Positions 265 through 64,000 of a DNA stretch of 64,000 bases are shown here, piece after piece. How positions within the stretch are numbered: the stretch's first letter is position 1; each line of letters starts with the position of its first letter. The translations under genes were made by a program, and so were the position numbers. The notes under the pieces are model-generated. The model did no database searches. It had not been told where the DNA came from and saw only the letters and a list, made by a program, of their open reading frames with translations. The stretch comes from Tubulanus polymorphus. Its lineage: Eukaryota > Animalia > Nemertea. Where the stretch lies: contig NC_134025.1 in the NCBI RefSeq assembly GCF_964204645.1, positions 9,486,001 through 9,550,000 on the forward strand, given 5' to 3'.

Positions 265-19745
<19,481 letters not shown>

Positions 19746-31200: not shown

Positions 31201-32958
31201 ACAATCGAGGATTATTAGGAATTTTCAGATAAAACTTCAGTTTTAACCTTGGCTCTTGCCTATCGCTGTCCCCGTGCTATCTCTCACAAAAAAAAATCAA
31301 ACAAATTTTCATTCGCCACGGATACGGATTATAACTTGTATATAGATTATGATTACATGTAATCCCATTTTACGTCCGAGAAATGCTCGGTGACGTGTTG
31401 TCATGAACTTAATGATGCAACCTTTTTAGCGATGATCGAATGTTTACAACGTTTACACATCTATATGATTTTAGAGCCAACAATATGTACAAACTTCCAA
31501 GTTGTTGGGAATTTAACGCAGTTCCCATTGGGAAGATTCATATGTCCAACATTTGGCAATATGAGCGATGATCACTCGTACTGCTGTGGCAACCCTGGAG
31601 AACAACGGTGCTGTACATTTTGGGATGAGTAAGTACCTGTACTTACGACGTTCGATCCTGGACTCTAGATACGATAATATGCTTACGCAATAAGCTTAAT
31701 CATCATCAGCACATTCCAGACATAGATGAACTAAATTTTGATCGAAATAACTGGACTACTGTACAATTTAGTTGCCAATATTTTGAGGTCACTGATAACT
31801 TCCCCTAACAATCCAACAACGCATCACTCAATAATTTTTACGACACTGTGTCGGAATGCTGCTCCCCGTGGAACGTATTTGTTACTCATGGTGTTATTGG
31901 AGATCGTCAAGCTCTTGGAATCTCATGAGTTTCTCTAGCTGATGTTGTTTGTTTTCTTATTTTACAGTACGAGTCGGGTTGCCGGATCGATAATAGGATC
32001 TATCATTTTCTTTGGTATTATCGGGCTTATCATATGGTGCTGTTGCAGGCGGTTCAGAAAGAAAGATCCACCGAAGAAATCGGCTAAAGTTCGTAAGGAA
32101 ATTATCATAAATTACGTTGTATTTTTTGAAACGATCTTCTGACCGGTATTCACCCGGGTTACATGATCGTCGGGTAGTTAAAACATTCCCGAGGATAACG
32201 CTGTCAAAAAATTAATATTCTGTTATCTATTGCTCAAATTATGATAATACATGTACATTAACTATTCACTTGCAGGTTATGAATCTGGTTCATCAGACGA
32301 GCATTCAGGTAAAGAATCTGACTATACTGTTCATTTTTTCCAACAATACTGTTCATTTTTTTCCGGTGACAATAATGTCATGCAAAAGGATTTTTAGCAT
32401 GAGCATTTATCATTTTTAGATACTCCAAATCCTGCAAAATTGGCCAATGAAGGGAATATGGCACCGTACCCAGGACAAGCGCCATCAATGGGTGCTCCAT
32501 ATCCTGGGCAGCCACCAGTGATGGGTGCTCCATATCCTGGACAGCCACCAGCAACGGGTGCTCCATATCCTGGGCAACCGCCAGCAACGGGTGCTCCATA
32601 TCCTGGGCAGCCACCAGTGATGGGTGCTCCATATCCTGGACAGCCACCAGCAATGGGTGCTCCATATCCTGGGCAGCCACCAGCACCGGGTGCTCCATAT
32701 CCTGGGCAGCCACCTGCCATGGGTGCTCCATATCCCGGGCAACCGCCAGCCATGGGTGCTCCATATCCTGGGCAACAACAAGCCCCATATCCTGGACAAC
32801 AACCGCCTATGGGTGCCCCATATCCAGGATTTGCACCAGATTCTGGACAAACGTCGTATCAAACGCCATGTAAGTCAGGGGAATGAAAATATGTTTTGTT
32901 CAATGAAATACACTTCAAAGGATACCCTGTGATGTGTACGTTCTCTCTTTCAGCGTAA
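28262..32958 (+). CDS. Shisa-like single-pass membrane protein: signal peptide, basic R/S region, Cys-rich domain, TM helix, Pro/Tyr repeat tail
   Basis: Exons 28262-28319 (MVAKRKLLAALLMVISLGA), 30144-30374, 31475-31628 (ICTN...FICP...YCCG...RCC), 31968-32092 (TM then WCCCRRFRKK), 32276-32308, 32420-32869, 32954-32958 (stop). All phases are compatible; AATAAA at ~33355. The FxCP...YCCG...CC-TM-CCC-Pro-rich layout is typical of Shisa/WBP1/VOPP1-like proteins. Confidence 0.8.
28659..28734. mobile_element. Short inverted-repeat MITE remnant
   Basis: AGGGATCATTCATTTATT ... AATAAATGAATGATCCCT, perfect 18-bp arms. Confidence 0.55.
28824..28932. mobile_element. Palindromic MITE, family A, second copy
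   Basis: GACTGATATTACCTTTAACCCG ... CGGGTTAAAGGTAATACCAGTC, the same arms as 10583-10666 with a longer centre. Confidence 0.75.
29699..30120 (-). mobile_element. 5'-truncated non-LTR retrotransposon (LINE): ORF2 C-terminus plus 3' tail
   Basis: Minus ORF reads RICTKCNMGVVGDEFHFLLVCP, the CCHC zinc knuckle typical of LINE ORF2 ends, with a stop at 29874. It is followed by AATAAA and a (CTTAA)n tail at 29699-29726. Clade (e.g. RTEX/L2 group) not determinable by eye. Confidence 0.8.
32458..32830 (+). repeat. Coding 30-bp minisatellite, about 10-12 copies of xGAPYPGQPP
   Basis: Unit (ATG)GGTGCTCCATATCCTGGRCAGCCACCAG repeated in tandem. Confidence 0.95.
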
Positions 32959-36823: not shown

Positions 36824-37584
36824 TTTGAACAGCCGTATATGACAAACTATTTACCGATTTTCCGGCCAGATTCAGAGACAATACTCAGAATCGTAAAACA
36901 GCAGTGAAACTGCCAAGTTGGCACTTTTTTAATAACAGAATTAGTTTGCTGAAATGAGTAAATATGTGTGGATTTATGAATTGTTCTTTTGAAAACACCT
37001 TCTTTTTCTCCTTAAGAAAGTAAGAAAAGTTTAAGTGATTTAGACAATGAGAATTTTTTCCAGAATTTAGTCTGGGAATGAATTCCGAAAATCTGTGATC
37101 CGCTCCTGATTGCGATACATCAATAGCGCGGAACGAGTTAACTCGGCGGCTGTGTAACTAGTTCATAGCTTCACCGTCAAGGGACAGCACTTGACGGTTA
37201 TGATCTCAGTTGCAAGTACATGTACATCTTGCCTTTAAGCATAGAATGATTTTCATGTCTTCAATATGAAATATATTATCCTCTGCGTACCAATACTTGC
37301 CTAAAAAGTAATCAACTTCTGTATTCTATAGTTTGATGTCAAACGGATCGACATTCCGACTAAAGACATGAGAGCATCATGCAGATTTTACATCAACTTA
37401 GATTAACTACATGCATTTTCTGAGGCTTGTTTGCTCATGTAAAATCTCGTGAAAAAATTCCTCAGCGTACTCCCTCCACAACATAAGAAAATTGATCCTT
37501 TGCGAATTTATCGTAAACCCATAAGCAAAAATACCATGTACACTTGTTTTTTTTTATTTGCCCAATAATTTACAAAATATGAAA

Positions 37585-39685
37585 CTAGAATTGGATCATC
37601 TGGCCCTGAAAAACAAAAAGTATATACAATAAGTCATTTAGTCACTTACAGAGCCGTCGGAAGGAATTTTTCAGTGGCGAGGCTTATTTCTGAAGGGTGG
37701 TCTGGGGGCCTGGAAAATTCAATCGCCACAGATGCGTTTTGGGGCCATTTCATGGTCTCATACACAGAAGCATGAGAAGTCGTGAGCCAACCACCCAGTA
37801 CAGAGAACGACGAGCTGCTACGCGGTACAGCGTGCTTTTGAAAAAAAATTTGTTACGCAAAAAAGTTCCGACCGCCCTGAAATGCGTTCAGTACAAACCT
37901 TTCTCTTCTTGTCTCCACCCAATTCAAAATGTTTGCATCGCTTGATGGCCAATTGTTTTCTGAACTTGCAGTCCGTGCATTCCATACGCAATACAATCTT
38001 CTTCGTAGTCTTAGCCTGAAATAAGCCATAACTCGCATTTAGTTATTAGCAGCAAACATATCCTGGATCAGATAAAATTCTTGTTCATCGAACAGGGACT
38101 GGTTTTGTGGATGTGGAGCAAAATGGGGGTTTCAAATTGAAAGATTTTAATCATTTTAGATCGGACATAACTATCTCTAACGATGAACTGATTTTCTGGT
38201 CCCCTGAAGTTTTTTGTTAAGAGGTGCCACCGTACTACGGTGGTTGTCAGTCATGCAAGATGTTTGCGGATTTACCCCCAAGGATAACTTTGAAACCTGG
38301 TCTATGGTGATATAAGCAGCTGTGGCTACAATGGGTATAGGAATTCAAAACCTTTTCGCAAAACTGGAACCCAGGGCAATTTGAAGAGAAAATTTAACTC
38401 TTAAAAACCTTTTTCATGAAAGTGACGACTGTAAACCCAGGAAATCATTTGAATAACAAATGCAAGTGGTAATCTTACTTTTCTTACCCCACTTTATGAA
38501 TTTGCTTACCTTTTTGTGGAACACCGGTTTCGTTTGACCACCATAACCCGATTGTTTCCTGTCGTATCTTCTTTTACCTGAATTGCAGAAAGAGGCATTT
38601 TTCATTCGAAACGTGAAGATATACAACAGATCACTGGATTAGATTTTAGATAAAGAGAATGCGTATGTTGATATTACCTTGGGCGTACACCGAAGCCTTT
38701 CCGGTCTTGTATTGCGTCACTTTGTGTAAAGTGTGCTTCTTGCATTTCTTGCCTTTGCAGAAAGTTCTGCGTGTCTTTGGCACGTTCACCTACAACATTA
38801 AATACAGAATATGTGAATACAGTAAAACTGTCATAACACAATCGACGAAACCAAGAAAAATATGACGTCAAAAAGAATGTTATTGCCATTGACTTTGAGT
38901 GAGATTTGACAAATTTGGTCTCTCAAGAATTATGCGTTCGCTAAATAAGGACAGCGTTAACACAGGCTTTAACTAACTGAGATTGAACTTTTTAGCTAAT
39001 CTGTAGTATCTAGCCATTATTCCTGATGAAACAAGTATTAGTAAGGGGCAGGGCGCATAACCTGTGTATGCAACCACATGCTTATAATTCAGGTCCTCAA
39101 AATATCGAAGAAATAGTAAATTGAGCGTAACACTACACTTCAAGACCTTGTCCTTGAGCAATGGCTTTTTAAACAGAGTACAACCGCCACGACAGGCCGA
39201 GCAAGTAGTTTAAGCCAAGTCTTGGTTGTTACTTGGCTCACCATGGAAGTTGTGGGCAGAAAGTAAGATAAATTGCGATACGAGGCCAGGCAGGCTACAA
39301 TTTTTACATTCTTCCCCGCAGTTATAACTTATAGGTCAATTCCCAACTACAAATAAACAGATCTACGACAACAAAACCAGTCGTGGCGTAAACCGATAGG
39401 TACTTATCAACAACACACTGAAGAAAATTGTTTTTTGACAACGAACAAAGTTATCTTATCTAGAAACGACTTTTATTTAGGGTACCCGCCGTCGTAGTAA
39501 CGTAAGAAGGTTACTCTGAAGTGGCTCGGTTTGTGACCCAATACGACGATAACGAGACAAAAAATAGACCACATTAAGGAGATAAACAATTTGACTTTTA
39601 AGTAACGATCATTCCAAAGGCTGACGACCGTAAAATAGGCCGATGATTTACGATAAAAAATTATTACAAAATCGCTACGTACCAT
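37585..39685 (-). CDS. RPL36A: 60S ribosomal protein eL42 (L36a/L44), copy 1, canonical Pro56
   Basis: Exons 39685-39683 (ATG), 38789-38678, 38577-38510, 38015-37899, 37605-37585 total 321 nt, 106 aa: [20 protein letters not shown]...[36 protein letters not shown]...GQMIQF*. AATAAA (minus) at ~37553-37558. Confidence 0.97.
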
Positions 39686-39705
39686 CTTAGATTTTCAATA
39701 TGGCC

Positions 39706-39905
39706 GAGAGGAAGTGCAGTCAGCGGCTATCAGCAATTCAATTCATTTTTATTCCACCGCAAAAATTGTTTACCCACCTGCGCATGCAGACTCCAGATAT
39801 CTCTTCTCTATCGTTATTTACAAAAATGTTCACACTAATAACCAAAACAAAAACAGGAATGAAATTAATTTTTCAGACCGTCAAAAGTGGCGCCATCTAT
39901 CGCAG
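39706..39905. promoter_or_regulatory. Bidirectional promoter for RPL36A copy 1 and SMAP, including a TCT/5'TOP start
   Basis: Minus-strand CTTCCTCTC (39714-39706) 20 nt upstream of the RP ATG. NRF1-like TGCGCATGCA at 39779-39788. SMAP non-coding exon donor at 39906. Confidence 0.65.
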
Positions 39906-39976
39906 GTAGCTTAATTTCTTTTATGGTTTGTGAAAGCTTCTACGGTTTTCGGATAAAAACAACGTTTCTGTAGAGG

Positions 39977-41703
39977 ATGAGCGACGGTTCAACTAACAGA
40001 GCTGCAGCAGAAACTAGCGCTGAACGCGGAGAGAAAAGACCGGTGGATGAAGATGTAAGTGAAGACGAGAGTTACATATTTAGGACCCAACAACACTTTT
40101 TTCAACCAATTCAATCACAATCAATTCAATTAAACTACTACCATCAACAAGTACTATGTTTGGGCGGGTGGTGGTACCTGGTGATGTTTTACACCAGAAT
40201 CCCAGCCAGGGCTTTTTTGGTAGATGGTGATTTGTGGATATCAATTAATTAGTAAATTCATTGTAATTCGTACCATCTACCCACCTTACCCCACCACTTA
40301 AAAAATCCTCGACACAACTCAAGAGAACTCTTTCTGAGTTGATCAAACAAGGAAGCCTTCTAGCTAGGCACGGATCCATTGTTACTACTACTGTAAAATT
40401 ACCCGCTGACCACAAGCCAGAATTGGCCGCTGTCATCCAGATGGAAGAGATAACAACCACTGTGTCTGTGACTGTACTCCCATACCACAGCTGAGCTGGC
40501 ATAGAAAATGAATGCCCTTCAATACCAGGCAGTTAAACAACCAAAATTTCGGTTATTGGCCATTACCAATCGTAATTTCGGTCAACGATACACAGGTTTT
40601 AATCAATTGGTGGCTAATTTAATTCAAAATGAACTAGCCTACTTCGTAGTGACCATATAGCCACTGTGACAAGAGGCTATGGTTCTTACTGACAAGAATA
40701 CAGTAATTAATTTTATCAATTTCGATTGTTGCAGGTTCATTCAGCAAATCAGTGGGAAAGTGTCGATCTCGGTGACAATGATAGAAAGAACAAGTTTTTA
40801 CGATTGATGGGTGCATCGAAGGTATGAAGTCGAATCTAATATTCTATCTACAGCTTCTAGCATAGTTATAGTTCGATATAGTGTAGAAAAAATCAATGTT
40901 TTTCAGAAAGAACATCATGGACGGTTTGTAATCGGAGACTCTCACAGAGATCATACGAAGGCTGGAGGTGAGTGAGTTGAATTTCAGCAGGTATCAATCA
41001 CTCAGCAGTCCGGACCAACCCTCTCAGATATTTATCACCATTACTCAAATTTTTGGTCGTCTAGGCTTCACCTGTGGTTGAGGCCTCACCTCTGATATTT
41101 TTAATTGAAAGTAAACTAAATAGTCGACTACAATGTCATTTATTGTAGTCATTTTACCACAATGCACATTCAAAAAGTGATTTTCAAGACTTCACCCAAC
41201 GATGGTGAATATCTGAGCAGATGGTTCTAGGCTGTATATTGGTACTAGATTTGACAAAGTCATATTAGATTTGATCATTGATGTCATGATGATCACGGGT
41301 GTTCCTAACGTCGTCGTGTCTTCGCATAACTTTTCTATATTTTCGATTTTTCGTTTCTTCCCTTCCAGGGAACGTCGACGAAAAAGACATCGAGAAGGAG
41401 TTTGAAAAAGGAATCGATTATAAATTGTCAAGTGGCTATAAACAACACAAAGGTCTTGGATTTCATGAAGAGCTGGACGCGGAAAAAGAGAAAACTGCCG
41501 ATGCAAAGGCAGGGTGTAGTGAGGAAAAGTCGACCGAGGATGCATCCAAAAGCGATACAAACGACAAGAAGGAGGATACAAACGGCCAAAAACCAATAGT
41601 CTCAGAAACTAAAAATAGTGAAAAAACGACGGAGAAAAGTACAGATGAATCTTCGAAACAACAGGGAATTAAGAAAATGACATTTGTTAAAGCTAGCAGT
41701 TGA
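39977..41703 (+). CDS. SMAP: Small acidic protein (SMAP, C11orf58 homolog)
   Basis: Exons 39977-40054, 40735-40821 (HSANQWESVDLGDNDRKNKFLRLMGASK), 40907-40967 (KEHHGRFVIGD), 41369-41703 (KLSSGYKQHKGLGF...KKMTFVKASS*). These are the characteristic SMAP motifs. Confidence 0.92.
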
Positions 41704-42301
41704 TTTGTTTGATAGATGTATCATAATTGCTTGAGCATTTAAAGAATCTGTCCTAAGGTTTCTTAAAGTAAAATAAGTCAGCCTCTTAGCGGATGTTATG
41801 TAGATGATGACATGCGTTGATTCACAAAGGTACGTTGTTGATAAATTGTGATATACGATGGTTATCTCACTGGACTTACCCCTTACAAAATATCCAAATT
41901 GTTGGAAAGCGTAAAATCCTGGCTAGGTATAACTGCAGTAACCAGAAGATATTTTTGTGCAGTACATTTTTCAGTGTCTGTGAAATGGGTTTGTGAATAT
42001 ATGTAAATGTCTGCTGTACATTCGATCATGAATCATGAACAATTCTTTCAAAAAGAAAAAATAAACCATTGTTTTATACAATAAAATACTCTTCTCTTTT
42101 TATGTTTTGGAGGATGTTTTGGCCCTTCTGCTCATTTGGATGGATGTACATTGTACCTATACCGGTGCCTGCGTCGTATTGAAATAAGAAATGCTATTTT
42201 ACCTGTTGTTAAAACTGAGTGGAACTTTTATTCAGTACAAAGAGACAATCAGAAAAATAAAGCACTACATTCATAGATTTGGTCTTAATAATCGGTGCTC
42301 T

Positions 42302-43544
42302 CTAGAATTGAATCATCTGGCCCTGAAAAAGGGAAAATGATCCATCATCGAAGGTGAATTTTTGAGAATTTGTTGGAGGTTATGACCTTTGTCCTTTAAA
42401 CTCCTTACCTTTCTCTTCTTATCTCCACCTAATTCAAAATGTTTGCATCTTTTTATGGCTAATTGCTTTCTGTATTTACATTCCGTGCATTCCATACGCA
42501 AAACAATCTTTTTAGTCGTTTTAGCCTAAAATATGTAAATCAAAATTTCTTAATCTTTTCCTTGCAGATAAGCATACTGTCGTGCATAACTCCTAGGTTA
42601 ATGGGCGTATTATTCAAATTTTCTCTGACCTTTTTACGAAAAACTACTTTAGTCTGGCCACCATAACCTGATTGCTTTCTATCATATCTCCTTTTACCTA
42701 CACGAGATAAGATAATAAAACGCATGAAATCAAGTGTATATTCTATGCTATACATCCTTCTCAAATTGCACGTGAATCATGAAATTTACCTTGCGCTACT
42801 AACGAAGCTTTTCCAGTCTTGTATTGTGTTACTTTATGTAAAGTGTGCTTCTTACACTTTTTGCCTTTGCAGAAAGTTCTGCGTGTCTTTGGTACGTTCA
42901 CCTATTGTGTATTGGGAAATAACTTCTACATCTTAAACTTAACAATTAACATTTTGGAGCACATCCAGACAAAATCATTGAGAAAATTTTTCAAAGGAGG
43001 TAGCTCTCCTAGAAATTGAATAAGCTTCGGAGAACACAGTGGAATTTGGTAGTTTGGAGAAATCTTTATTCAAGGAAACCGTGTGGGCTTAAATCTCAAA
43101 TGAATCTATGAGTCACTTCAAAACTTTATGAATGTGCAGTCGACTGTTGATTTAATTAAAATTAAAAATCCTTATATAGAGTAGCACTCGCTTCATTCGG
43201 ATCGTCTGGGACTGGAAATTCCGACTTAAACGAAATCCGAATTACGTGCTCTTGTTTGAATAGAAATAACCTAGTTGGGACTGTAATTTTAGTAAAATCT
43301 GAAGAAAACCAATATGAATTAAACGATTTATATTGTAGTAATCTTATCCAGATTATTTAATATCAAGAGTATGATTTGAAATATCTTAATTTCTTGATCT
43401 AGATTCGTTCAGCCCAGTTTTAATATCGATATTTTGACTAATAATTCTCAACTCCTTCTTGTGAGTCAGTCAACCATGAAATACAAATTCCTTGAAGAAT
43501 TGAAGAACCGTCTAGAAAATGTTCCAAGACATTATACATACCAT
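42302..43544 (-). CDS. RPL36A: 60S ribosomal protein eL42 (L36a/L44), copy 2, Pro56Val variant
   Basis: Exons 43544-43542 (AAAAATG|gtatgt, inferred), 42901-42790, 42697-42630, 42525-42409, 42322-42302. Exon sizes match copy 1; intact 106 aa with [19 protein letters not shown] (minus) at 42227-42232. Confidence 0.95.
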
Positions 43545-45492
43545 TTTTGTTAGTCTTTTAGTTAAGTCTCCACTGCGATCTTTAATAAACCAATGGCCAC
43601 TGATAAATGCACCAAAAATTGTGTCATGCACTTCGATTTTTATTTAGTCAAGTGGCAGCATGATTTATGTCCTGAATTAGTATGATAAAAGCCATGTGTA
43701 TTGCCAAGGTATGTCGCAATATCCAACATGACTCAACCCAAGCCAACTTACCTAGGTGATAAATGTACTCTTCCCAAGAACATTTCAAGCTTAAATGCAA
43801 TCAGAAAATAAACAAAAACGACAAGATTTCACGGTTATTTTTGCAAACAATATATTGTGTATTTTGTTATTTATCAAACATGCCATAAGAATTATTAAAG
43901 CTTCAGAAATCAAATGACAGATTTTCACTTTCATCATTGTCATGTAGTACTGCCATCTTATTATTGTGTGCACCTGATACCCAAGGAGGGAACTGCAAAT
44001 TGGATAAAACATATCAGCTATTTCTTCTATTTCAAACCAATAGATAACAGATCAAATAGAATTCTTAGCTGCAAAGCAACTGTGCTAAGATAAAGAGGCA
44101 TTTGTCTGAATATACTGATTGCCATCATTAAGAATGATTAGTAAATTCTAAGATGGTCAAAATTCCCAATCAATGACCTTTCTTCCAAAATTCTCTACTG
44201 ACTCAACAATAACAAACTTCATTGCAAACTGCAGAAGGCGTACACAAATCAGTACCCCGCTAATTTGTATTTCTTGGACGGTATATAAATGAATATAGTC
44301 GGACGGAATCTTCAACAGCACTGCCGGTAGGTAAAATAACTGGCAATAATAACAAGTTGTTTCTCTTTTCGAATTCATTAATGAACAATTTTACAACATC
44401 TAGCGATCATATATCACATTTTGAATCTGTCATACACGGTTTTTTCATACATAGCTCGGACGGAATCGCATGCATAGAATAAGTGAACTGATTGGTTTGT
44501 GCTTCAACCAATGGGAACTAAGACTAGCTACTTGCATATGTATATAAGACACAGATTGCTAAGTACATACCGGTATACTACATGCTAAATACATCGTAAA
44601 CATTTCAGTGTGGTCGTAAATAGAATATTCAATGCCAGCGGAATGAATAAGAGTTTCATAAAGCAGCTAAGATGAAATGGTTATCATCCAATGAGTAGTA
44701 TGGATCTTGAACAAATTCAGTAAATCATTAAATTTGGCAATATGTGTGCATGTTCTTGAACCATAACTTACCAAAAGAAGTGGCTTTCTTTATCACAGAA
44801 TATATCATGTTCCTGGAGTGTCATTTAACCTTTCGGTAATGAGCATCCAATATACAATTACTAAAGCTTTTTCTACTTATTCCAACTAAAAATTCAACTA
44901 GCTTGCTCAAAGGGTTAGCATACAGAATAACCTGTAAAGCTTATTTTACACCTGCATTTAGAGATAAATATAGATTTTTCCAAATATATAAAACAAGAAA
45001 TCATTATCCATCACAAAATGTCCAAATGGCAACACTTCTTTACTTGGCAAGACTAATGGGAGACGTGGTGAGTAGTTTCAGGAATGTTTTCAAAAACATT
45101 ATTCGGATATCGCGGCATCCACTCAAGTTCTATCTTTATCTACACAGAGGGTAATCGGAAGTCATCCAATAATCAAATACCCGCGTTTCATAGCAATAAA
45201 TTTGACGAAATATCGGTGGCATCCGAAGCCATCAATCAGTGCACATATGATGTAACGACAAAAATTCCAGTAAACAACCGATATTACAATATAAACAGTA
45301 AGAACAACTAATCCACAGCGAATGAAAAGAGCAGCAATGTCCGCGCGCGCGAATCGACCGTGGCAGAACAAGAGAATATTTACAACTATTCAAACACGCT
45401 ATCGATATTTACAATCAACTGTTTTCACTGTCGATTCACAATCCTTAGTGATCCAACTAATGTATTTTCCTCAAACAGGACTCGCTGAATGA

Positions 45493-48967
<3,475 letters not shown>

Positions 48968-49901
48968 TATAGGTGGCGCCCCGACTGCAATGAAAAATCA
49001 TCGCATAAACATGAAAATTTTCAAGTTTGAAAGTAGTTTTTTCTTTTAGATTACTAAGAAATCTGATATGACCTGATGTCAATAATTTCTGCACAGTATA
49101 TATTGAAGTTCATCTATTGATAACAGAGGGCATGTGCAGTACCCGGATTAAAAATTTCACTGAAGAATTTCAACTTTGTTAGGACGCATGACTGAACTTC
49201 TTTCACTTTAATGCCATCTCATCATAGGGGTCCAAGGCAGACAATGGCAAACACATAAATAAAAGGACCACTATACTTTGTACGATATTTCGTTTCAAAG
49301 GAATAATCTGTTAAATAGCTTTATCGACAGAAAAATAAATTGATATGCAATTATTAGTGCCTATATAGCCATTTAATAATCATGAACGCGTCAAGAACTG
49401 AACACAAACGAGGCAAAAAAATTTCCACCTACCATTCTATACTGGTAATACATTTTTCATATTTCGCTATCCATTCTCAGCTTTTATCGGTTAACTTTTT
49501 TTATTCCATCATCCTGTGAAATGAAGATTTAAAATTTGAATTTGAATCAAGAGATCAATTCGAAGTGACTACAGCTTTACGAACATGTCTTTAGTAAAGC
49601 TTGCTTGCGCGCCATGCCAGCGAAATAAATTCTTACGTACGTATTTTTTCTTCTGATAATTGAAGTGCCTCAAGCATGACAATTATCAGAACTATGAGGT
49701 ACACCAGAGGGATAAACAATCCATAGAAATATAGGCCGAGACCACAAAAGAACTATCTTAGGTAATAGTTATCCGATCATAAAAAGGTGGCCCCAATACA
49801 CAGAATTGTCACATTTCATTTCTTGAAAAACGGGTTTACGGTGCATTCTAATTGAATGAGATGTTCTGTATATATACATTTGTAACGGTTTGTGTACATT
49901 T

Positions 49902-52326: not shown

Positions 52327-53356
52327 TCAAACGGGTCGATCGATGTTAGCCTGAATTTTTTTCGCACAGTCCAACAACGAGTCATGTATTTCTTTTGCGC
52401 ACGATATTTGTTGTTTAATCGTTCCAATAAACTGGGGATAACTCTGCATTTCTTGACCAGGTGGAGGTAAGTCCTGCTTGCCCGAATGAACAGGTACGGG
52501 TGTATTCTTCATACTATCCGTGTTCAGATTATTACACTCAACTGCTAACCTCTGAAAGAATCCGTGAAACAAATGAAAAAACTATTTGATGTTGGAAGTA
52601 TGATAGCAGTGGTGAGTGAGGTTATACTCACCAAGTTAATTTCAATTTGGTCACACATTGAATAAAATTCTTCCAGGCTTTTGTCAAATCTTTGTAGTGG
52701 TGCTTCACTTTTTCTGGAGTAAACAAATGAGTTATATTAAGATAAATTATGTGAATCTAGTGTAATCATTCCAACTTGACTTGACTGACACGGAAGTCTC
52801 AAGTCAAGTTCGGAAATGTTTGGAAATAGACATAGTCAGTCTGTGGTTCAGTTTTACAATCAGAAATTTTCAAGCCCATTCGAATATTACAGCTTGCCAC
52901 AAATAACGGATTAGGTACGGTACCATAACTAAATCAAGTGAAGTGGTGAAGAACAAAATTCAGATTTGATTGATGAAAGGCGTGGTAGGTAAATGTGATA
53001 CGTACGAACAATTGTCAACTTGTGCATTGTGATGAAAGTTCTGCGCAGCAATTTTCATGAGATTCTGGAATATGAAAAAAAGTATGACTGCAAAATCAAA
53101 TTTCCCTGGAACGGTTGCTTTTAGTAATTAGTAGTACAAAAACAATACTCACAGAAAGCGACTCTTTTAATCGTGGAATTAAGAGTCGTACTTTAATAAC
53201 TGGATCGACTTCGGCGACCTGTTGTTGCTGCTGCTGGGCTTGTAAATGTTGTTGCGGAGGCCCGGGCGGTTGCTGGTGGAGAGGATTTTGCATCGGGTTC
53301 TGCATTGGAGGCATTTGATGCATTGGAGCCATTTGCGGTACGCCGGTCCCAGCCAT
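52327..53356 (-). CDS. MED29: Mediator subunit 29 (intersex homolog)
   Basis: Exons 53356-53153 (Q/P-rich, DPVIKVRLLIPRLKESLS), 53064-53006 (NLMKIAAQN), 52713-52632 (RFDKSLEEFYSMCDQIE), 52551-52327 (QSYPQFIGTIKQQISCAKEIHDSL). Confidence 0.95.
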
Positions 53357-53723
53357 TTTCTAAGTCCAATAATGAGTCCAACATCCGAAATACTACCTTA
53401 CCAAAATACTACCTTTCGCGACACAGGCCGATTTTCCATCTAAACTGGTTTGACAAGTGACAGTAACATTCTCAAGCACTCGCTGGGTCTTTCTATTTTT
53501 CAGGTCAATCATTTTCTCGTTATCATTTCAAAACCGGAAAGTTTCTTCAATAAAACGATAATTTAATTTGATCCGACAAATACCGATAACCGATAGGAAA
53601 CGCGGAAGTAAAAAACTGCTTTCAACTACTAGTAAAAACGATCTCATTTTCGGTAATTATTCTGGAAGTAAGTCAACATTGGATTCGTAAAAACTTCTGG
53701 AGCATCATCTGGTTATGTGAGAA
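53357..53723. promoter_or_regulatory. Bidirectional promoter region for MED29 and PAF1
   Basis: 367 bp between divergent ATGs. ETS-type GGAAG cores: CGCGGAAGTA at 53601-53610 and CTGGAAGTA at ~53662. Confidence 0.6.
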
Positions 53724-58426: not shown

Positions 58427-60148
58427 CTAACACTGTCTAGACGATTGCGGATATTTAGTTTTCAGTTCAATTTTAAACTGATGTAACAGCTGTCGATTTT
58501 TGAACATCTCTTCTTGTTTACTTTCGTGGAAGCCGTGTTTTAGTTTATGCCCCATGTGAATGATGAAAGCGTGATTGAGGACGGCAAAATGATATTCCGC
58601 GATGAACATTTCGCATATCTGTAAAAGTAGGAAAAAAGAAAGTACATCATTCATCTATTTTGAAAAGAAACAAGCATTGAAATACTGTCTGCGAATAGAT
58701 TTTGCAAGGCTACCTCCACGAATATTCCAAATCAAGGAAAGTTAATACTGCAATAGCCTATAAAAGCAGTTCCAGGAGCCAACCAGCTTGTTGGACCAGT
58801 TAATTTGATTAACTCAATTTACTGACAGCTGGGGCAAGTTGCTCAAAAGTTGGTTTAAGATAACTGGCGGATAAATAACATATTAACAATGGATTTTTAA
58901 TTGTCACTATGTCAACTTTCCGCTGGTTAAGTCTTTCGAGCAACTGATTGCTGCTTTATTAACCAAGGGATTAAACTTAGAGCTGGTCATGAAAACTGAA
59001 TCCAAGGCGGCAATTCACTTAAAACTACTGACTAGGTTAACATCTACATTTTCGATTTCATGATGCAATGAATTTACCTGGCTAACTCTGTTATAGCCAT
59101 ACTGCATGAACCTCTCATCGTACAAAGGTATATTACGATGAGCGATGAAAAATGGCTCCCAGGGATGAGACCAGTTTTTGAAATATGCTATATCTAACGG
59201 AGCTGAATGTTTCAGGTTTTTATATTGCACGATCCATTTATCGTAATCCATGATACCCTGGCATTTCGGACACGGTTCGATGTAAAACTGACGTATAAAT
59301 CCGTCGTTTAATCCTTGGAACAATTCCCTCCGGTCGTACGGAATGCTTTCTTCATTTATCGTTTCGAACACGGGAATCACGTATACGACGCGTTCGCGCA
59401 TTTTATTCGCCGAAAACAGATCGTTCCGATTCGCGAACTCTAGGAATTCTTCGCGTAACGTCCGCTTCGGAGCGAGGTCTGCATCAGCGACGAGAATGTA
59501 TTCGGTTTGACTGTGTCGAATACCGACGTTGCGCAATAAATTATTCGGATATTTCACGCCGCGTATACCATAGCTCTCGATATCCTTCGTCATTTTCATT
59601 TCGCGAAACGCCAAGCGGCAAATCGACCGATCGTCTAAATTCGAGTACATTTTCAAATCGCGAGCCGGCAGCGTCAACGGCGCCACGAAATGAAAAACGA
59701 TACGCTGCATCAAAGAACCTTCGCAATAATCCAGCCGTATTATGTGTTCCATAGCGACTATCGCGTCTTGTCCCGGCGTGAACACGACCACCGAAATCGG
59801 ACCTTTCCACAATTTAGCTATATCCGCGAGATGATACATTCGATTTATCGAACAATGTATAACTAAAGTGACGTCGCGTTTTAAACGTTGTTCGTACATT
59901 TCGCTGCCTATCCATATACGAGGTATGATACTGTAATGTCCGCTCGAATCGATGACATGGCGGTTTTCGTACACGCGTTTCATTCGGTCAAACTCGCTCG
60001 AGATGAGAAACGCTTTTCGATCGCGATCGTTGATTTCTTTTTGTACGTTGTACTGCGTTAACAACGTCGCGTAGAATAGCTGTAAAATGATTAAAGCGAT
60101 GACGAGACCCGACGTCAATTTACACCAATTGACGCGAATTGTATTCAT
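58427..60148 (-). CDS. B4GAT1: Beta-1,4-glucuronyltransferase 1-like (GT49 family, type II Golgi membrane protein)
   Basis: Exons 60148-59078 and 58618-58427, 420 aa. N-terminal TM, W(K)GPISVVVF, YPNNLLRN, DxD motif (ADAD), WEPFFI, PLYDERFMQYGYNRVSQ|ICEM. A probable 5'UTR intron lies at ~60203-60734. Confidence 0.88.
58832..58950. mobile_element. MITE family B, second copy (B4GAT1 intron)
   Basis: CAAGTTGCTCAAAAG ... CTTTCGAGCAACTG, flanked CTG/CTG, colinear with 24644-24768. Confidence 0.7.
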
Positions 60149-60409
60149 AATGGCGCATAACCGGCCGTAGCGCCATCGACTTCAACCACAGCAAGCTCCA
60201 ACCTGAAAAAATCTATCCAATAAAACTTAAGCTGCAAAAGCTATGCCTACGCTGGTAATGGTCATGGTTTCTACACTAACAGTGCCAACACTGCTTTACT
60301 TCTAAGCAATAGAACCACAGGGGCTTGTCACAATTTGGGATTCAAATGGACAAGCATGTGAGTGCACAGTGCTCTAACCTCTGGAGGTATCGAGGTATCT
60401 TTTTTACTA

Positions 60410-61766: not shown

Positions 61767-63599
61767 CTACATCTTTTCTTTTTGCTTTTTACCAATCTTT
61801 GGTAATTCAAATAACCCCAAAAACATTCGCTTCCGTGGTTTCTGTAGGCACGAATTGCAGAACATCGAATCACGTCCATGGCTACACTGCTGTGATTCAA
61901 TTTCCGACTGTTCCGCCGGCAAAATCATTTCAAAATCTGAAGAAGTTGGCGGCAAAGAAGGAAGCGCGGACGCATCTTCAAATAACTCGCGATAGTCTGT
62001 ACCGGTTATTGTCGATTTAATCGATATATCTAACTCCTGAATAGAGTTGAAATCATCGCGGGGCCGTTTTTCATCTTTAGTTAAACGCAGGGGCGATTTG
62101 ATGCTGGCGTAAAGTCGGTCCCAGAACCACACTCTACAGTCTGGCCGGCAAAAGTCGATTGGTGTTATCGGCTTCAAAACACCTTCCAACGGACAGTCTT
62201 CTAAACGAACGGGGAGTATTTTCTTTCCAGTAGCACCTGAAAATATACCATTATTTACCTACGTACGCGAGCTTCATAATTTTCCAATCTGGAAGCATCA
62301 AAAAATCGTACCTGGTGATAGGCAATGCGCATACTGAGTTTGAAATTCACACTCCTTACTTTGCATATAGCCGTTCGTAACGATAATCACCAGCCTCCGG
62401 CACCTGGATGAAAAGTATATACATGTATTATTAAGTTTTTTCAATATTCAAAAATAAAATCTCCCAGCTAGTTTGTCAATACCTTTTTTCGATGAGTTCA
62501 CACGAAACTTTACCGCGGTAACCACCGCCCAGTAAATCTCGAGACGGAATGAATAGTTTCACTTTCGGTTCAAGATGGGTAATCATCGAATGAACAAATC
62601 TGGCTGCCAAGTCGGTCGGATCGTCACAAAATAATACAGCCGCATCGTAATACGTTATCCGGTTGTTATGTGCTGTAAACAATGATTATACATGTATTTC
62701 AATACTGTCAGAGATCTACAGGCCTAAAATAATTTTGGAAAAAAACTACTGCATTAAGTGTAAGAATCTACTGATATACACGAAGTAAACTTACCGTCCT
62801 CGACGGTGTACCGGTGGAAATCTTCAGTGGCGGGATTTTCTGAGGTGCTACTTACTACAAATGAACAATACGCTTAACATCTTTACACATTATATATAAT
62901 TTGATTCCCTTCATACGGGAGATTTCGAATAACCCCGGATTTTAAAAAACAAAACAGTTATTACTCGAATATGAGAAACGTATTTCGTAATTAAAAACAC
63001 GGTACAAAAATCACAAGGAAGTTACGTAGTTTCTCACTTTCAGGAACTTGCGGGGGGCAAATTGCATTTCGCCTGGCCTGCTCTCTGCATCGTAGTGCTT
63101 CTACTTGATCACGGTACAAGCGAACGTCATTTTCTGTCAAAACACACAGATGGAGATGAAATGATTTGAAATTGATAAAAAGTAGATAGAGATGATAAAA
63201 CCAATGCGGATTGAAAAGCTTCTGACGCTCACCCAAACATTTCAATTTGTCGAGGTCGTAAAGAACATCTTCTCTTCCTAAGTATTCGAGAATATCTAAT
63301 AAAGACTGGACCGACCGCGTCGAGGGATCATCCGGTTGATGGAAAGTTGTTTTATTCCAATCTTCGAGAATCTCGCCCATCGGATCCGAACTTCGCCTGA
63401 ATCGCTCGATAGAATAATAGTCGAAGCCACGACATTGCGCTACACCTCTGTAGTCTACTAGGCATCCGCACGATATGTTTACCAATGGGTTTTCGACATT
63501 GAGAAAGTTCGACAAAATATTCCTTGTCAAATAGTTAAGAGCACTAACAGGAATATCATGCAAATGATTGCGCGCTTTCTTGGTAAGCGATGCTGCCAT
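61767..63599 (-). CDS. MYD88: Myeloid differentiation primary response protein MyD88 (death domain, TIR domain, C-terminal extension)
   Basis: Exons 63599-63233 (death domain IPVSALN...LLDILEYLGREDVL), 63133-63038, 62854-62795, 62672-62483, 62403-62312 (RCRRLVIIV...SKECEFQTQYAHCLSP), 62236-61767 (KKILPV...WFWDRL plus a tail). Confidence 0.92.
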
Positions 63600-64000
63600 T
63601 TTGCATATATATATTCCAACTCAATAAACACAGAATAAGTAGGATGCACTGAACAGAATGAATCGTAAAACACTATTTATATCATCAATCGCTTATCAAT
63701 TCTTATACAAACTTATATCCAGTCCATTTCATAAATCCGCGCTGGACGTATGGTCCGATTAGTGACCAATTCAGGTGACCAAGACGTAGCCAGAACGCTC
63801 CCACAGTACCACTGCCTACAATTTCAAATCTGTAGGCATTGTTATTATAGATCTGAATGTAATGGTCACTGTCAGCCTCACTAACATCCGTTATCTATTC
63901 TCTTCGTTTTGACAAACAATCCATGATCCATCTCAAATTCAATCATTTTCAGTATAGCAGTACAGTACTACCGTACTGCGACTATATGAAGCGATAAAGA

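What the first reader, a model, noticed from the sequence alone, without database searches (positions are those of the whole stretch)
37585..43544. Two intact eL42 (RPL36A) paralogs, one with Val at the cycloheximide-resistance residue Pro56: candidate toxin-resistant or specialised ribosome system
Seen: two same-strand 5-exon copies with identical exon sizes, non-alignable introns, many synonymous changes and only six amino-acid differences (V35L, Y36V, P56V, H59R, D76E, F79Y). Copy 1 has GGQTK-P-VF (CCG at 38527-38525) and copy 2 has GGQTK-V-VF (GTA at 42647-42645). Pro to Val needs at least two base changes. Established: eL42 Pro56 (yeast numbering, identical here) lines the 60S E-site pocket; P56Q confers cycloheximide resistance in yeasts; Candida maltosa keeps both P- and Q-type L41 genes; the adjacent Lys55 is a methylation site. 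The E site is also targeted by lactimidomycin and by marine toxins such as lissoclimides, mycalamides and tedanolides. Inference: an old duplicate under purifying selection with a targeted E-site change could give an animal an inducible or tissue-specific ribosome that resists dietary or symbiont translation toxins. Val has not been shown here to confer resistance.
Basis: partly seen in the sequence, partly recalled or inferred. Interest (0 to 1): 0.85.

Follow-up and report, generated by a model that had tools for sequence, protein, structure and literature searches.

The report
Recurrent Val56 eL42 ribosomal protein paralog
This animal (likely a ribbon worm or relative) keeps a second, intact and spliced gene for ribosomal protein eL42 with valine in place of the proline that lines the ribosome's drug-binding exit site, a change also found in sponge, sea-squirt, clam and acorn-worm records that likely arose several times and would probably blunt natural protein-synthesis toxins.

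Summary
Observation confirmed. There are two intact five-exon eL42 genes with six amino-acid differences and CCG versus GTA at codon 56; dN/dS is about 0.03. A DNA-like run carries both copies on overlapping contigs. An RNA-like run shows copy 2 spliced, with GTA.

New here: Val56 recurs. It occurs in 22 of 379 retrieved eL42 entries covering the site, including Halichondria, two Ciona, Ruditapes, Mercenaria and Saccoglossus. It is rare in sets not aimed at Val (1 of 152). Trees without columns 56 and 59 make the two window copies sisters and reject a single origin of Val56 (AU p 0.005 and 0.018). All 22 have Arg/Lys59, against His59 in 184 of 349 Pro56 entries; the independent-pairs test is not significant (p 0.125). 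Siboglinid tubeworms have Leu56+Arg59.

Gln and Leu at 56 are published cycloheximide-resistance changes. I recall, but could not read, a yeast saturation study placing Val as moderately resistant.

Best reading: a repeatedly evolved E-site target-site change that lowers toxin sensitivity (about 0.5). No toxin, tissue pattern or ribosome incorporation is shown. Specialisation without toxins and tolerated drift remain open.

The parts
39683..39685 (-). eL42 copy 1 (Pro56), coding exon 1 (ATG)
   Evidence: an RNA contig runs from exon 2 into 15 nt matching this exon (loose end at 38790)
38678..38789 (-). copy 1 exon 2 (112 nt)
   Evidence: spliced to exon 3 in X2
38510..38577 (-). copy 1 exon 3 (68 nt), Pro56 CCG 38527-38525, His59 CAC 38518-38516
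   Evidence: both flanking joints in X2
37899..38015 (-). copy 1 exon 4 (117 nt)
   Evidence: (PF00935)
37585..37605 (-). copy 1 exon 5 with stop; AATAAA at 37558
39706..39714 (-). pyrimidine tract (TCT/5'TOP-like) 29 nt before the copy 1 ATG, in a CpG-rich promoter (CpG o/e 1.44) facing the SMAP gene
   Evidence: function inferred from recalled knowledge of ribosomal-protein promoters
43542..43544 (-). eL42 copy 2 (Val56), coding exon 1 (ATG); no comparable pyrimidine tract within 400 nt upstream, CpG o/e 0.59
   Evidence: inferred from the splice donor, not seen joined in RNA
42790..42901 (-). copy 2 exon 2 (112 nt), Val36 GTA at 42799-42797
   Evidence: spliced to exon 3 in X2
42630..42697 (-). 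copy 2 exon 3 (68 nt), Val56 GTA 42647-42645, Arg59 CGT 42638-42636
   Evidence: X2 contig 42634-42693 with 0 differences and both flanking joints; matches eL42 residues 40-61 of yeast and other PDB chains
42409..42525 (-). copy 2 exon 4 (117 nt)
   Evidence: (PF00935)
42302..42322 (-). copy 2 exon 5 with stop; AATAAA at 42232
39977..41703 (+). SMAP (small acidic protein) gene between the copies, 4 exons, 186 aa; head-to-head with copy 1, tail-to-tail with copy 2; a bystander
   Evidence: three joints in X2, open frame, PF15477

Best explanation
Copy 2 is an old, spliced, purifying-selected duplicate of eL42 whose Val56, with Arg59, is predicted to reshape the 60S E-site pocket, so that the ribosomes carrying it would likely keep translating when a natural E-site inhibitor blocks the Pro56 ribosomes. 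Shown: an intact gene, constraint, splicing, the identity and position of the residue, and repeated occurrence of Val56+Arg/Lys59 across animal phyla with a single origin rejected. Inferred: the protein enters ribosomes; the beta-branched side chain and freed backbone at 56 lower affinity for glutarimide- or lissoclimide-like compounds; Arg59 is a permissive or compensating partner; exposure to microbial, dietary or symbiont toxins is the selective reason. The Pro56 copy keeps the housekeeping-type promoter and would supply ordinary ribosomes, giving a mixed pool with partial resistance.
For: (1) dN/dS 0.03 at dS about 1.2, no disabling change. (2) Spliced copy-2 contigs in X2, absent from DNA-like X1. 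(3) Copy 2 is not degenerating: against two Lineus proteins and the column majority, three changes fall on each branch (copy 1: V35, D76, F79; copy 2: V36, V56, R59), and without columns 56 and 59 the copy 2 branch is the shorter (0.014-0.017 vs 0.041-0.047). (4) Val56 in 22 of 379 entries, named in Porifera, Tunicata, Bivalvia and Hemichordata; the tree needs 9 changes; one clade is rejected (AU p 0.0049; 0.018 with the mixture model). (5) Val needs two base changes from Pro, yet the one-step residues Ala, Ser, Thr, His and Arg were seen in 0 of 379 entries and Leu in 6 (one false Ala match dropped). (6) Pro56 lies 3.1 A from cycloheximide and Gln56 clashes with it (PMC9132455); chlorolissoclimide hydrogen-bonds the Pro56 and Phe58 backbone (PMC6451132); Pro-to-Leu in RPL36a gives cycloheximide resistance in Chlamydomonas act2 (10.1101/2022.01.27.478094); C. 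elegans P55Q heterozygotes with mixed ribosomes are partly resistant (PMC12132315). (7) Recalled only, text not held: Bae et al. 2018 (reference seen) classed yeast P56V as functional and moderately cycloheximide-resistant.
Against: No toxin, producer or exposure is identified for this animal or any other Val56 carrier. Val is smaller than Gln and has no carbonyl, so the published clash mechanism does not carry over directly, and backbone-binding lissoclimides might be little affected. Two of three homolog searches were aimed at Val, so the lack of Ala/Ser/Thr is partly a sampling effect; only 120 of 1025, 2604 and 1979 hits were listed, and 90% clusters hide variants. The 56/59 coupling is not significant on independent pairs (5 pairs, mean 4.1 same way, 0 opposite, p 0.125). 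The alignment has only 103 columns; starred branches force only 4 changes, or 2 under the mixture model. One RNA-like run from one study, tissue and treatment unknown; contig depth cannot rank the copies. Many other marine invertebrates show only Pro56 in what was retrieved (Mya, Mactra, Tegillarca, Lingula, Arenicola, Lineus).
Confidence: 0.5

Rival explanations
1. Specialised ribosome without a toxin. Val56+Arg59 tunes E-site tRNA release, elongation speed or the Lys55 methylation context for a tissue or state (germline, dormancy, low oxygen), and any drug resistance is a side effect.
For: The copies have different promoter types: copy 1 has a pyrimidine tract and CpG o/e 1.44, copy 2 has neither (0.59); GC3 is 0.59 vs 0.36. 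That pattern resembles germline-biased ribosomal-protein paralogs (recalled). Recurrence across phyla fits this reading as well as it fits toxins. Several carriers (venerid clams, Saccoglossus, siboglinids) live in sediment or sulfidic settings (recalled).
Against: P55Q worms look wild type without drug (PMC12132315) and act2 grows almost like wild type, so position 56 has little reported effect on normal translation. Its known large effect is on inhibitor binding.
Confidence: 0.28
2. Tolerated drift. The duplicate is kept for dosage, Val is simply one of the few residues that work at 56 once residue 59 is Arg, and recurrence reflects a narrow set of allowed states.
For: Arg59 with Pro56 is common (161 of 349 Pro56 entries), so Arg59 can arise first. 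Substitutions at 56 can be viable. The Val-aimed searches inflate apparent recurrence.
Against: Pro56 is kept in 148 of 152 entries of the sets not aimed at Val. No Val56 was seen among the named vertebrate, arthropod, gastropod and flatworm Arg59 entries retrieved. The two-step residue is commoner than any one-step residue. Copy 2 shows no general speed-up.
Confidence: 0.17
3. One ancient Val56 paralog, inherited from early animals, lost in most lineages and made to look lineage-specific by gene conversion with the Pro56 copy.
For: The copies here are only 4.1-4.7 kb apart. The venerid Val56 proteins group with the annelid Arenicola Pro56 protein (98/89) and not with other bivalves, which a simple recent origin does not explain.
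Against: One Val56 clade is rejected. The window copies are sisters (98/89-91). Ciona Val56 groups with tunicate-like Pro56 proteins (95/80). No conversion tract was detected (longest low-difference run p 0.37) and the introns do not align.
Confidence: 0.05

Closest known systems
Cycloheximide-resistant eL42/L41 P56Q of yeasts (Candida albicans, Kluyveromyces lactis, Candida maltosa)
   Same: Same protein, same residue, natural substitution lining the E-site pocket (PMC9132455; PMC12132315). C. maltosa keeps both P- and Q-type genes, the Q type inducible (recalled, not read).
   Different: Val instead of Gln, paired with Arg59; in animals; resistance and inducibility untested here.
Laboratory alleles at eL42 residue 56: Chlamydomonas act2 Pro-to-Leu, C. 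elegans P55Q, Salpingoeca P56Q, human L36a P54Q, yeast saturation series (Bae et al. 2018)
   Same: Show that the site tolerates change and that an aliphatic residue (Leu) can confer resistance. Recalled only: Val moderate in the yeast series; a Pro-to-Leu change in C. elegans rpl-41 resists the sponge toxin psymberin but not mycalamide A (Wu et al. 2012).
   Different: Selected or engineered single alleles; this is a natural, long-retained paralog with parallels in other phyla.
Target-site insensitivity by paralog duplication, e.g. cardenolide-resistant Na,K-ATPase copies in milkweed bugs and Leptodactylus frogs (recalled)
   Same: A sensitive and an altered copy kept side by side; the same substitution recurring in distant lineages; a partner substitution.
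   Different: The target is the ribosome; the toxin is unknown; resistance is not measured.
Tissue-specific ribosomal-protein paralogs (Drosophila germline paralogs, mammalian RPL10L, RPL39L, RPL36AL; recalled)
   Same: A second copy with a different promoter type and codon bias.
   Different: An intron-bearing local duplicate, not a retrocopy; few changes, centred on the E-site loop; tissue pattern unknown.

Membership tests
eL42/L44e (Pfam PF00935) | Profile match | tested here: met
   Exon 4 of both copies scores 45.9 and 42.9 bits against a cut-off of 25; exon 3 of copy 2 matches PDB eL42 chains
eL42/L44e (Pfam PF00935) | Four zinc-ribbon cysteines, and Lys55/Phe58 of the E-site loop | tested here: met
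   C12, C17, C74, C77, K55 and F58 are present in both translations; K55 in 149 of 149 aligned proteins
eL42/L44e (Pfam PF00935) | Incorporated into the 60S subunit | not testable with these tools
   Needs ribosome proteomics
Cycloheximide-resistant eL42 alleles | Non-proline at residue 56 | tested here: met
   GTA in the window, in X1 and in X2
Cycloheximide-resistant eL42 alleles | Gln56, the natural yeast type | tested here: not met
   The residue is Val, so it is not filed as a P56Q-type allele
Cycloheximide-resistant eL42 alleles | Measured drug resistance | not testable with these tools
   Leu shown in Chlamydomonas; Val only recalled from Bae et al. 2018, text not held
Candida maltosa-type two-gene P/non-P system | Sensitive-type and altered-type genes coexist and are expressed | tested here: met
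   Both copies are spliced in run X2
Candida maltosa-type two-gene P/non-P system | Altered gene induced by the inhibitor | not testable with these tools
   One run, condition unknown
Tissue-specific ribosomal-protein paralog | Restricted expression | not testable with these tools
   No tissue-resolved runs listed
Tissue-specific ribosomal-protein paralog | Loss of the housekeeping TCT/TOP-type promoter | tested here: inconclusive
   No pyrimidine tract or CpG enrichment near the copy 2 ATG, but its transcription start is unknown

The most novel reading that the evidence does not exclude
Marine invertebrates of at least five phyla have independently evolved the same Val56+Arg59 eL42, and siboglinid tubeworms a Leu56+Arg59 version, as target-site resistance to a widespread microbial E-site translation toxin. 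This would be a ribosomal counterpart of cardenolide-resistant Na,K-ATPase, with this animal holding sensitive and resistant copies side by side.
Probability: 0.4. Interest if true: 0.87.

Novelty: new variant of a known kind. Interest (0 to 1): 0.72.

Why it matters
Natural changes at eL42 residue 56 are described for fungi; the papers read show animals with Pro. A repeatedly evolved Val56+Arg59 in sponge, tunicate, bivalve, hemichordate and this animal would be natural target-site change in the animal ribosome. It makes two open questions testable with one residue pair: how invertebrates that host, filter or eat producers of E-site toxins protect their own translation, and whether ribosomal-protein paralogs ever have a definite biochemical job. 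This locus is a clean natural comparison, because both versions sit 4 kb apart, are both spliced and differ at six residues.

Tried and rejected
Assembly or haplotype artefact: rejected (non-alignable introns, an even-depth DNA contig linking both copies). Pseudogene or relaxed copy: rejected. Gene-conversion tract: not detected (p 0.37). No whole genome is held, so further eL42 copies in this animal could not be sought. No run is on record as RNA; X2 is read as RNA only from its GT..AG joints. X3 and X4 show patchy low depth, no spliced joints for either copy and no cover of 42108-42749, which is not evidence either way. Contig depths at the joints (copy 1 13,833 and 18,435; copy 2 5,462 and 6,135) are reported but not used to rank the genes. 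Independent-pairs test of the 56/59 coupling: not significant. Pro56 copies in Ciona, Mercenaria, Ruditapes, Saccoglossus or Halichondria were not met among the 83 newly listed members of ten clusters; at most 15 members are listed per cluster, so this is no evidence of absence. A search for cycloheximide sensitivity of Ciona gave 10 listings, none read. The psymberin and yeast-saturation papers are not held; the one supplement searched (PMC9132455) has nothing on Val. Three look-ups in earlier findings were empty. No structure or complex was predicted, because the loop's shape depends on rRNA.
Full report
Observation. Each has five coding exons of 3/112/68/117/21 nt with GT..AG introns and gives 106 aa. 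The six differences and the two codon-56 positions are exact. Only exons align between the loci. Thirty-six codons differ silently and six do not; NG86 gives dS 1.16 (0.69-3.2), dN 0.035 and dN/dS 0.03 (0.003-0.07), Fisher p 6e-25. Exon 4 of each copy passes the Pfam Ribosomal_L44 cut-off. Exon 3 of copy 2 aligns to residues 40-61 of yeast eL42; the three alignments printed, of 50 hits, all have Pro opposite Val.

Reads. Four runs from one study hold the stretch, none on record as RNA. X1 behaves as DNA: even depth, no spliced joints, and a 4136-nt contig from copy 1 exon 2 to copy 2 exon 2 with no difference at codon 56. It may be the source sample. X2 behaves as RNA. It skips introns 2 and 3 of copy 1, introns 2 and 3 of copy 2 and three SMAP introns at GT..AG ends. 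A 60-nt X2 contig over 42634-42693 has no mismatch and includes GTA, though the codon is only 11 nt from its end. So copy 2 is transcribed and spliced. Contigs cannot give level, start or tissue.

Surroundings and host. A SMAP gene lies between the copies. Copy 1 faces it across a CpG-rich promoter with a pyrimidine tract 29 nt before the ATG. Copy 2 has no such tract near its ATG, lower CpG and lower GC3. The neighbouring B4GAT1-like protein's best match among 1.84 billion representatives (372 bits, next 275) shares a 90% cluster with Lineus longissimus (46% identity to the Lineus protein). A nemertean or another lophotrochozoan is therefore likely. The eL42 trees do not join the window copies to Lineus, so this placement is loose.

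How rare is Val56? Three homolog searches and two eL42 cluster look-ups returned 430 eL42-family entries; 379 cover the site: 349 Pro, 22 Val, 6 Leu, 2 Gln (50 lack the site and one false Ala match was dropped). The two sets not aimed at Val give 148 Pro, 1 Val and 3 Leu of 152. Searches were aimed at Val, and the members came mostly from Val clusters. Named Val56 proteins are from Ciona intestinalis (P0125), C. savignyi (P0227), Halichondria panicea (P0131), Ruditapes philippinarum (P0152), Mercenaria mercenaria (P0178) and Saccoglossus kowalevskii (P0153). The other 16 are unnamed and partly redundant. Names are database labels. Leu56 occurs in the siboglinids Ridgeia and Lamellibrachia (P0506, P0509, and the mis-modelled P0032) and in three mammalian entries that are probably retrocopies (inferred). 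Each search listed only its best 120 of 1025, 2604 and 1979 hits, and 90% clusters hide variants, as the siboglinid Leu56 inside a Pro56 cluster shows.

One origin or many? I built trees without columns 56 and 59 on 54 and 71 rows, chosen from the full-length proteins as all Val56 rows, their nearest Pro56 neighbours and named representatives; most vertebrate rows were left out. The window copies are sisters (98/89; 98/91; not starred in the quick mixture tree). Twelve Val56 rows need 9 changes; starred branches force 4 or 2. Holding them together is rejected (AU p 0.0049; 0.018). With 103 columns the exact number of origins is uncertain, but one origin is unlikely. One oddity is that the venerid Val56 pair groups with Arenicola Pro56.

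Partner residue. All 22 Val56 entries have Arg59 (21) or Lys59 (1), and the five readable Leu56 entries have Arg59, while 184 of 349 Pro56 entries have His59. The close Pro56 relatives mostly have His: copy 1 here, both Lineus, Mya, Mactra, Dreissena, Arenicola, asteroids and the tunicate-like P0193. On independent pairs the direction is consistent (mean 4.1 of 5 same way, 0 opposite) but not significant, p 0.125. Polarised against Lineus and the column majority, copy 2 gained V36, V56 and R59, and copy 1 gained V35, D76 and F79. Copy 2 is therefore not decaying, and two of its three changes sit in the E-site loop.

Mechanism. From papers: Pro56 is 3.1 A from bound cycloheximide, Gln56 narrows the pocket, and C. 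albicans extract is about 1000-fold resistant but still phyllanthoside-sensitive (PMC9132455; passages and part 1 of 2 of its results section). Chlorolissoclimide bonds the Pro56/Phe58 backbone (PMC6451132; passages). Pederins, mycalamides and tedanolides are listed as E-site binders, with structures only for some (PMC7689648, PMC8430933; passages). Pro-to-Leu gives resistance in Chlamydomonas (10.1101/2022.01.27.478094; passages). P55Q worms are normal without drug and heterozygotes are partly resistant (PMC12132315; passages). P56Q and P54Q work in a choanoflagellate and in CHO cells (passages). PMC9894252 and PMC6557518 were searched for passages and gave nothing on eL42. Recalled and unread: Bae et al. 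2018, seen only as a reference, put Val among functional, moderately resistant residues; Wu et al. 2012 found a Pro-to-Leu change in C. elegans rpl-41 that resists psymberin. The inference is that copy 2 yields a share of ribosomes with a reshaped E-site pocket that keeps working under an inhibitor. I put this at 0.5, specialisation without toxins at 0.28, tolerated drift at 0.17 and one ancient paralog at 0.05.

Novelty. Ten literature searches showed no listing on natural Val56 in animals; 'eL42' with 'P56V' gave 0 papers. The library lacks most subscription journals, one PMC supplement was searched, and no preprint supplements could be seen. An earlier scan note describes a divergent second eL42 in Naegleria with a rewritten E-site segment (unchecked). 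The protein is an ordinary eL42, and a sensitive-plus-altered gene pair is known from yeast, so this is a new variant of a known kind. What is surprising is the recurrence of the same residue pair across animal phyla.

Noticed in passing
proteins P0506, P0509, P0032 (not in the window): The siboglinid tubeworms Ridgeia piscesae and Lamellibrachia satsuma have Leu56+Arg59 eL42; Pro-to-Leu in this protein is a published cycloheximide-resistance change in Chlamydomonas. Two Ridgeia gene models both appear to have Leu.
   Followed up: partly
window 37649-37866: A high-copy interspersed repeat of about 220 nt in intron 4 of copy 1 (depth above 10,000 against about 46 in X1, many loose ends).
   Followed up: no
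window 39683-39700, run X2: A copy 1 RNA contig follows the genome for 15 nt of exon 1 and then carries 29 letters, ending in GGG at the junction, that were not found in the window. There is no AG at the junction, so a template-switch adapter is likelier than a spliced leader.
   Followed up: partly
window 43600-43620, minus strand: An acceptor-like sequence lies about 57 nt before the copy 2 ATG, so copy 2 may have an extra non-coding first exon further upstream.
   Followed up: no
window 42797-42799: Val36 in copy 2 differs from copy 1 Tyr at all three codon positions and is rare in the family (3 of 149 including this one); its structural role was not examined.
   Followed up: no
window 5691-18185, 48716-48997, 53096-53359, 59015-60181, 62991-63620: Ordinary neighbours: an RRM (CELF-like) gene, a protein kinase, a Med29-like exon, a B4GAT1-like glycosyltransferase and a death-domain (MyD88-like) gene (the 'like' names are partly recalled).
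   Followed up: partly
window 32398-32886, plus strand: A 33-nt tandem repeat encoding an 11-residue Pro/Gly/Tyr-rich unit in one long open frame; no Pfam match.
   Followed up: partly
proteins P0152, P0178 vs P0510: The venerid Val56 proteins share uncommon residues with the annelid Arenicola Pro56 protein and group with it (98/89), not with other bivalves; unexplained.
   Followed up: no
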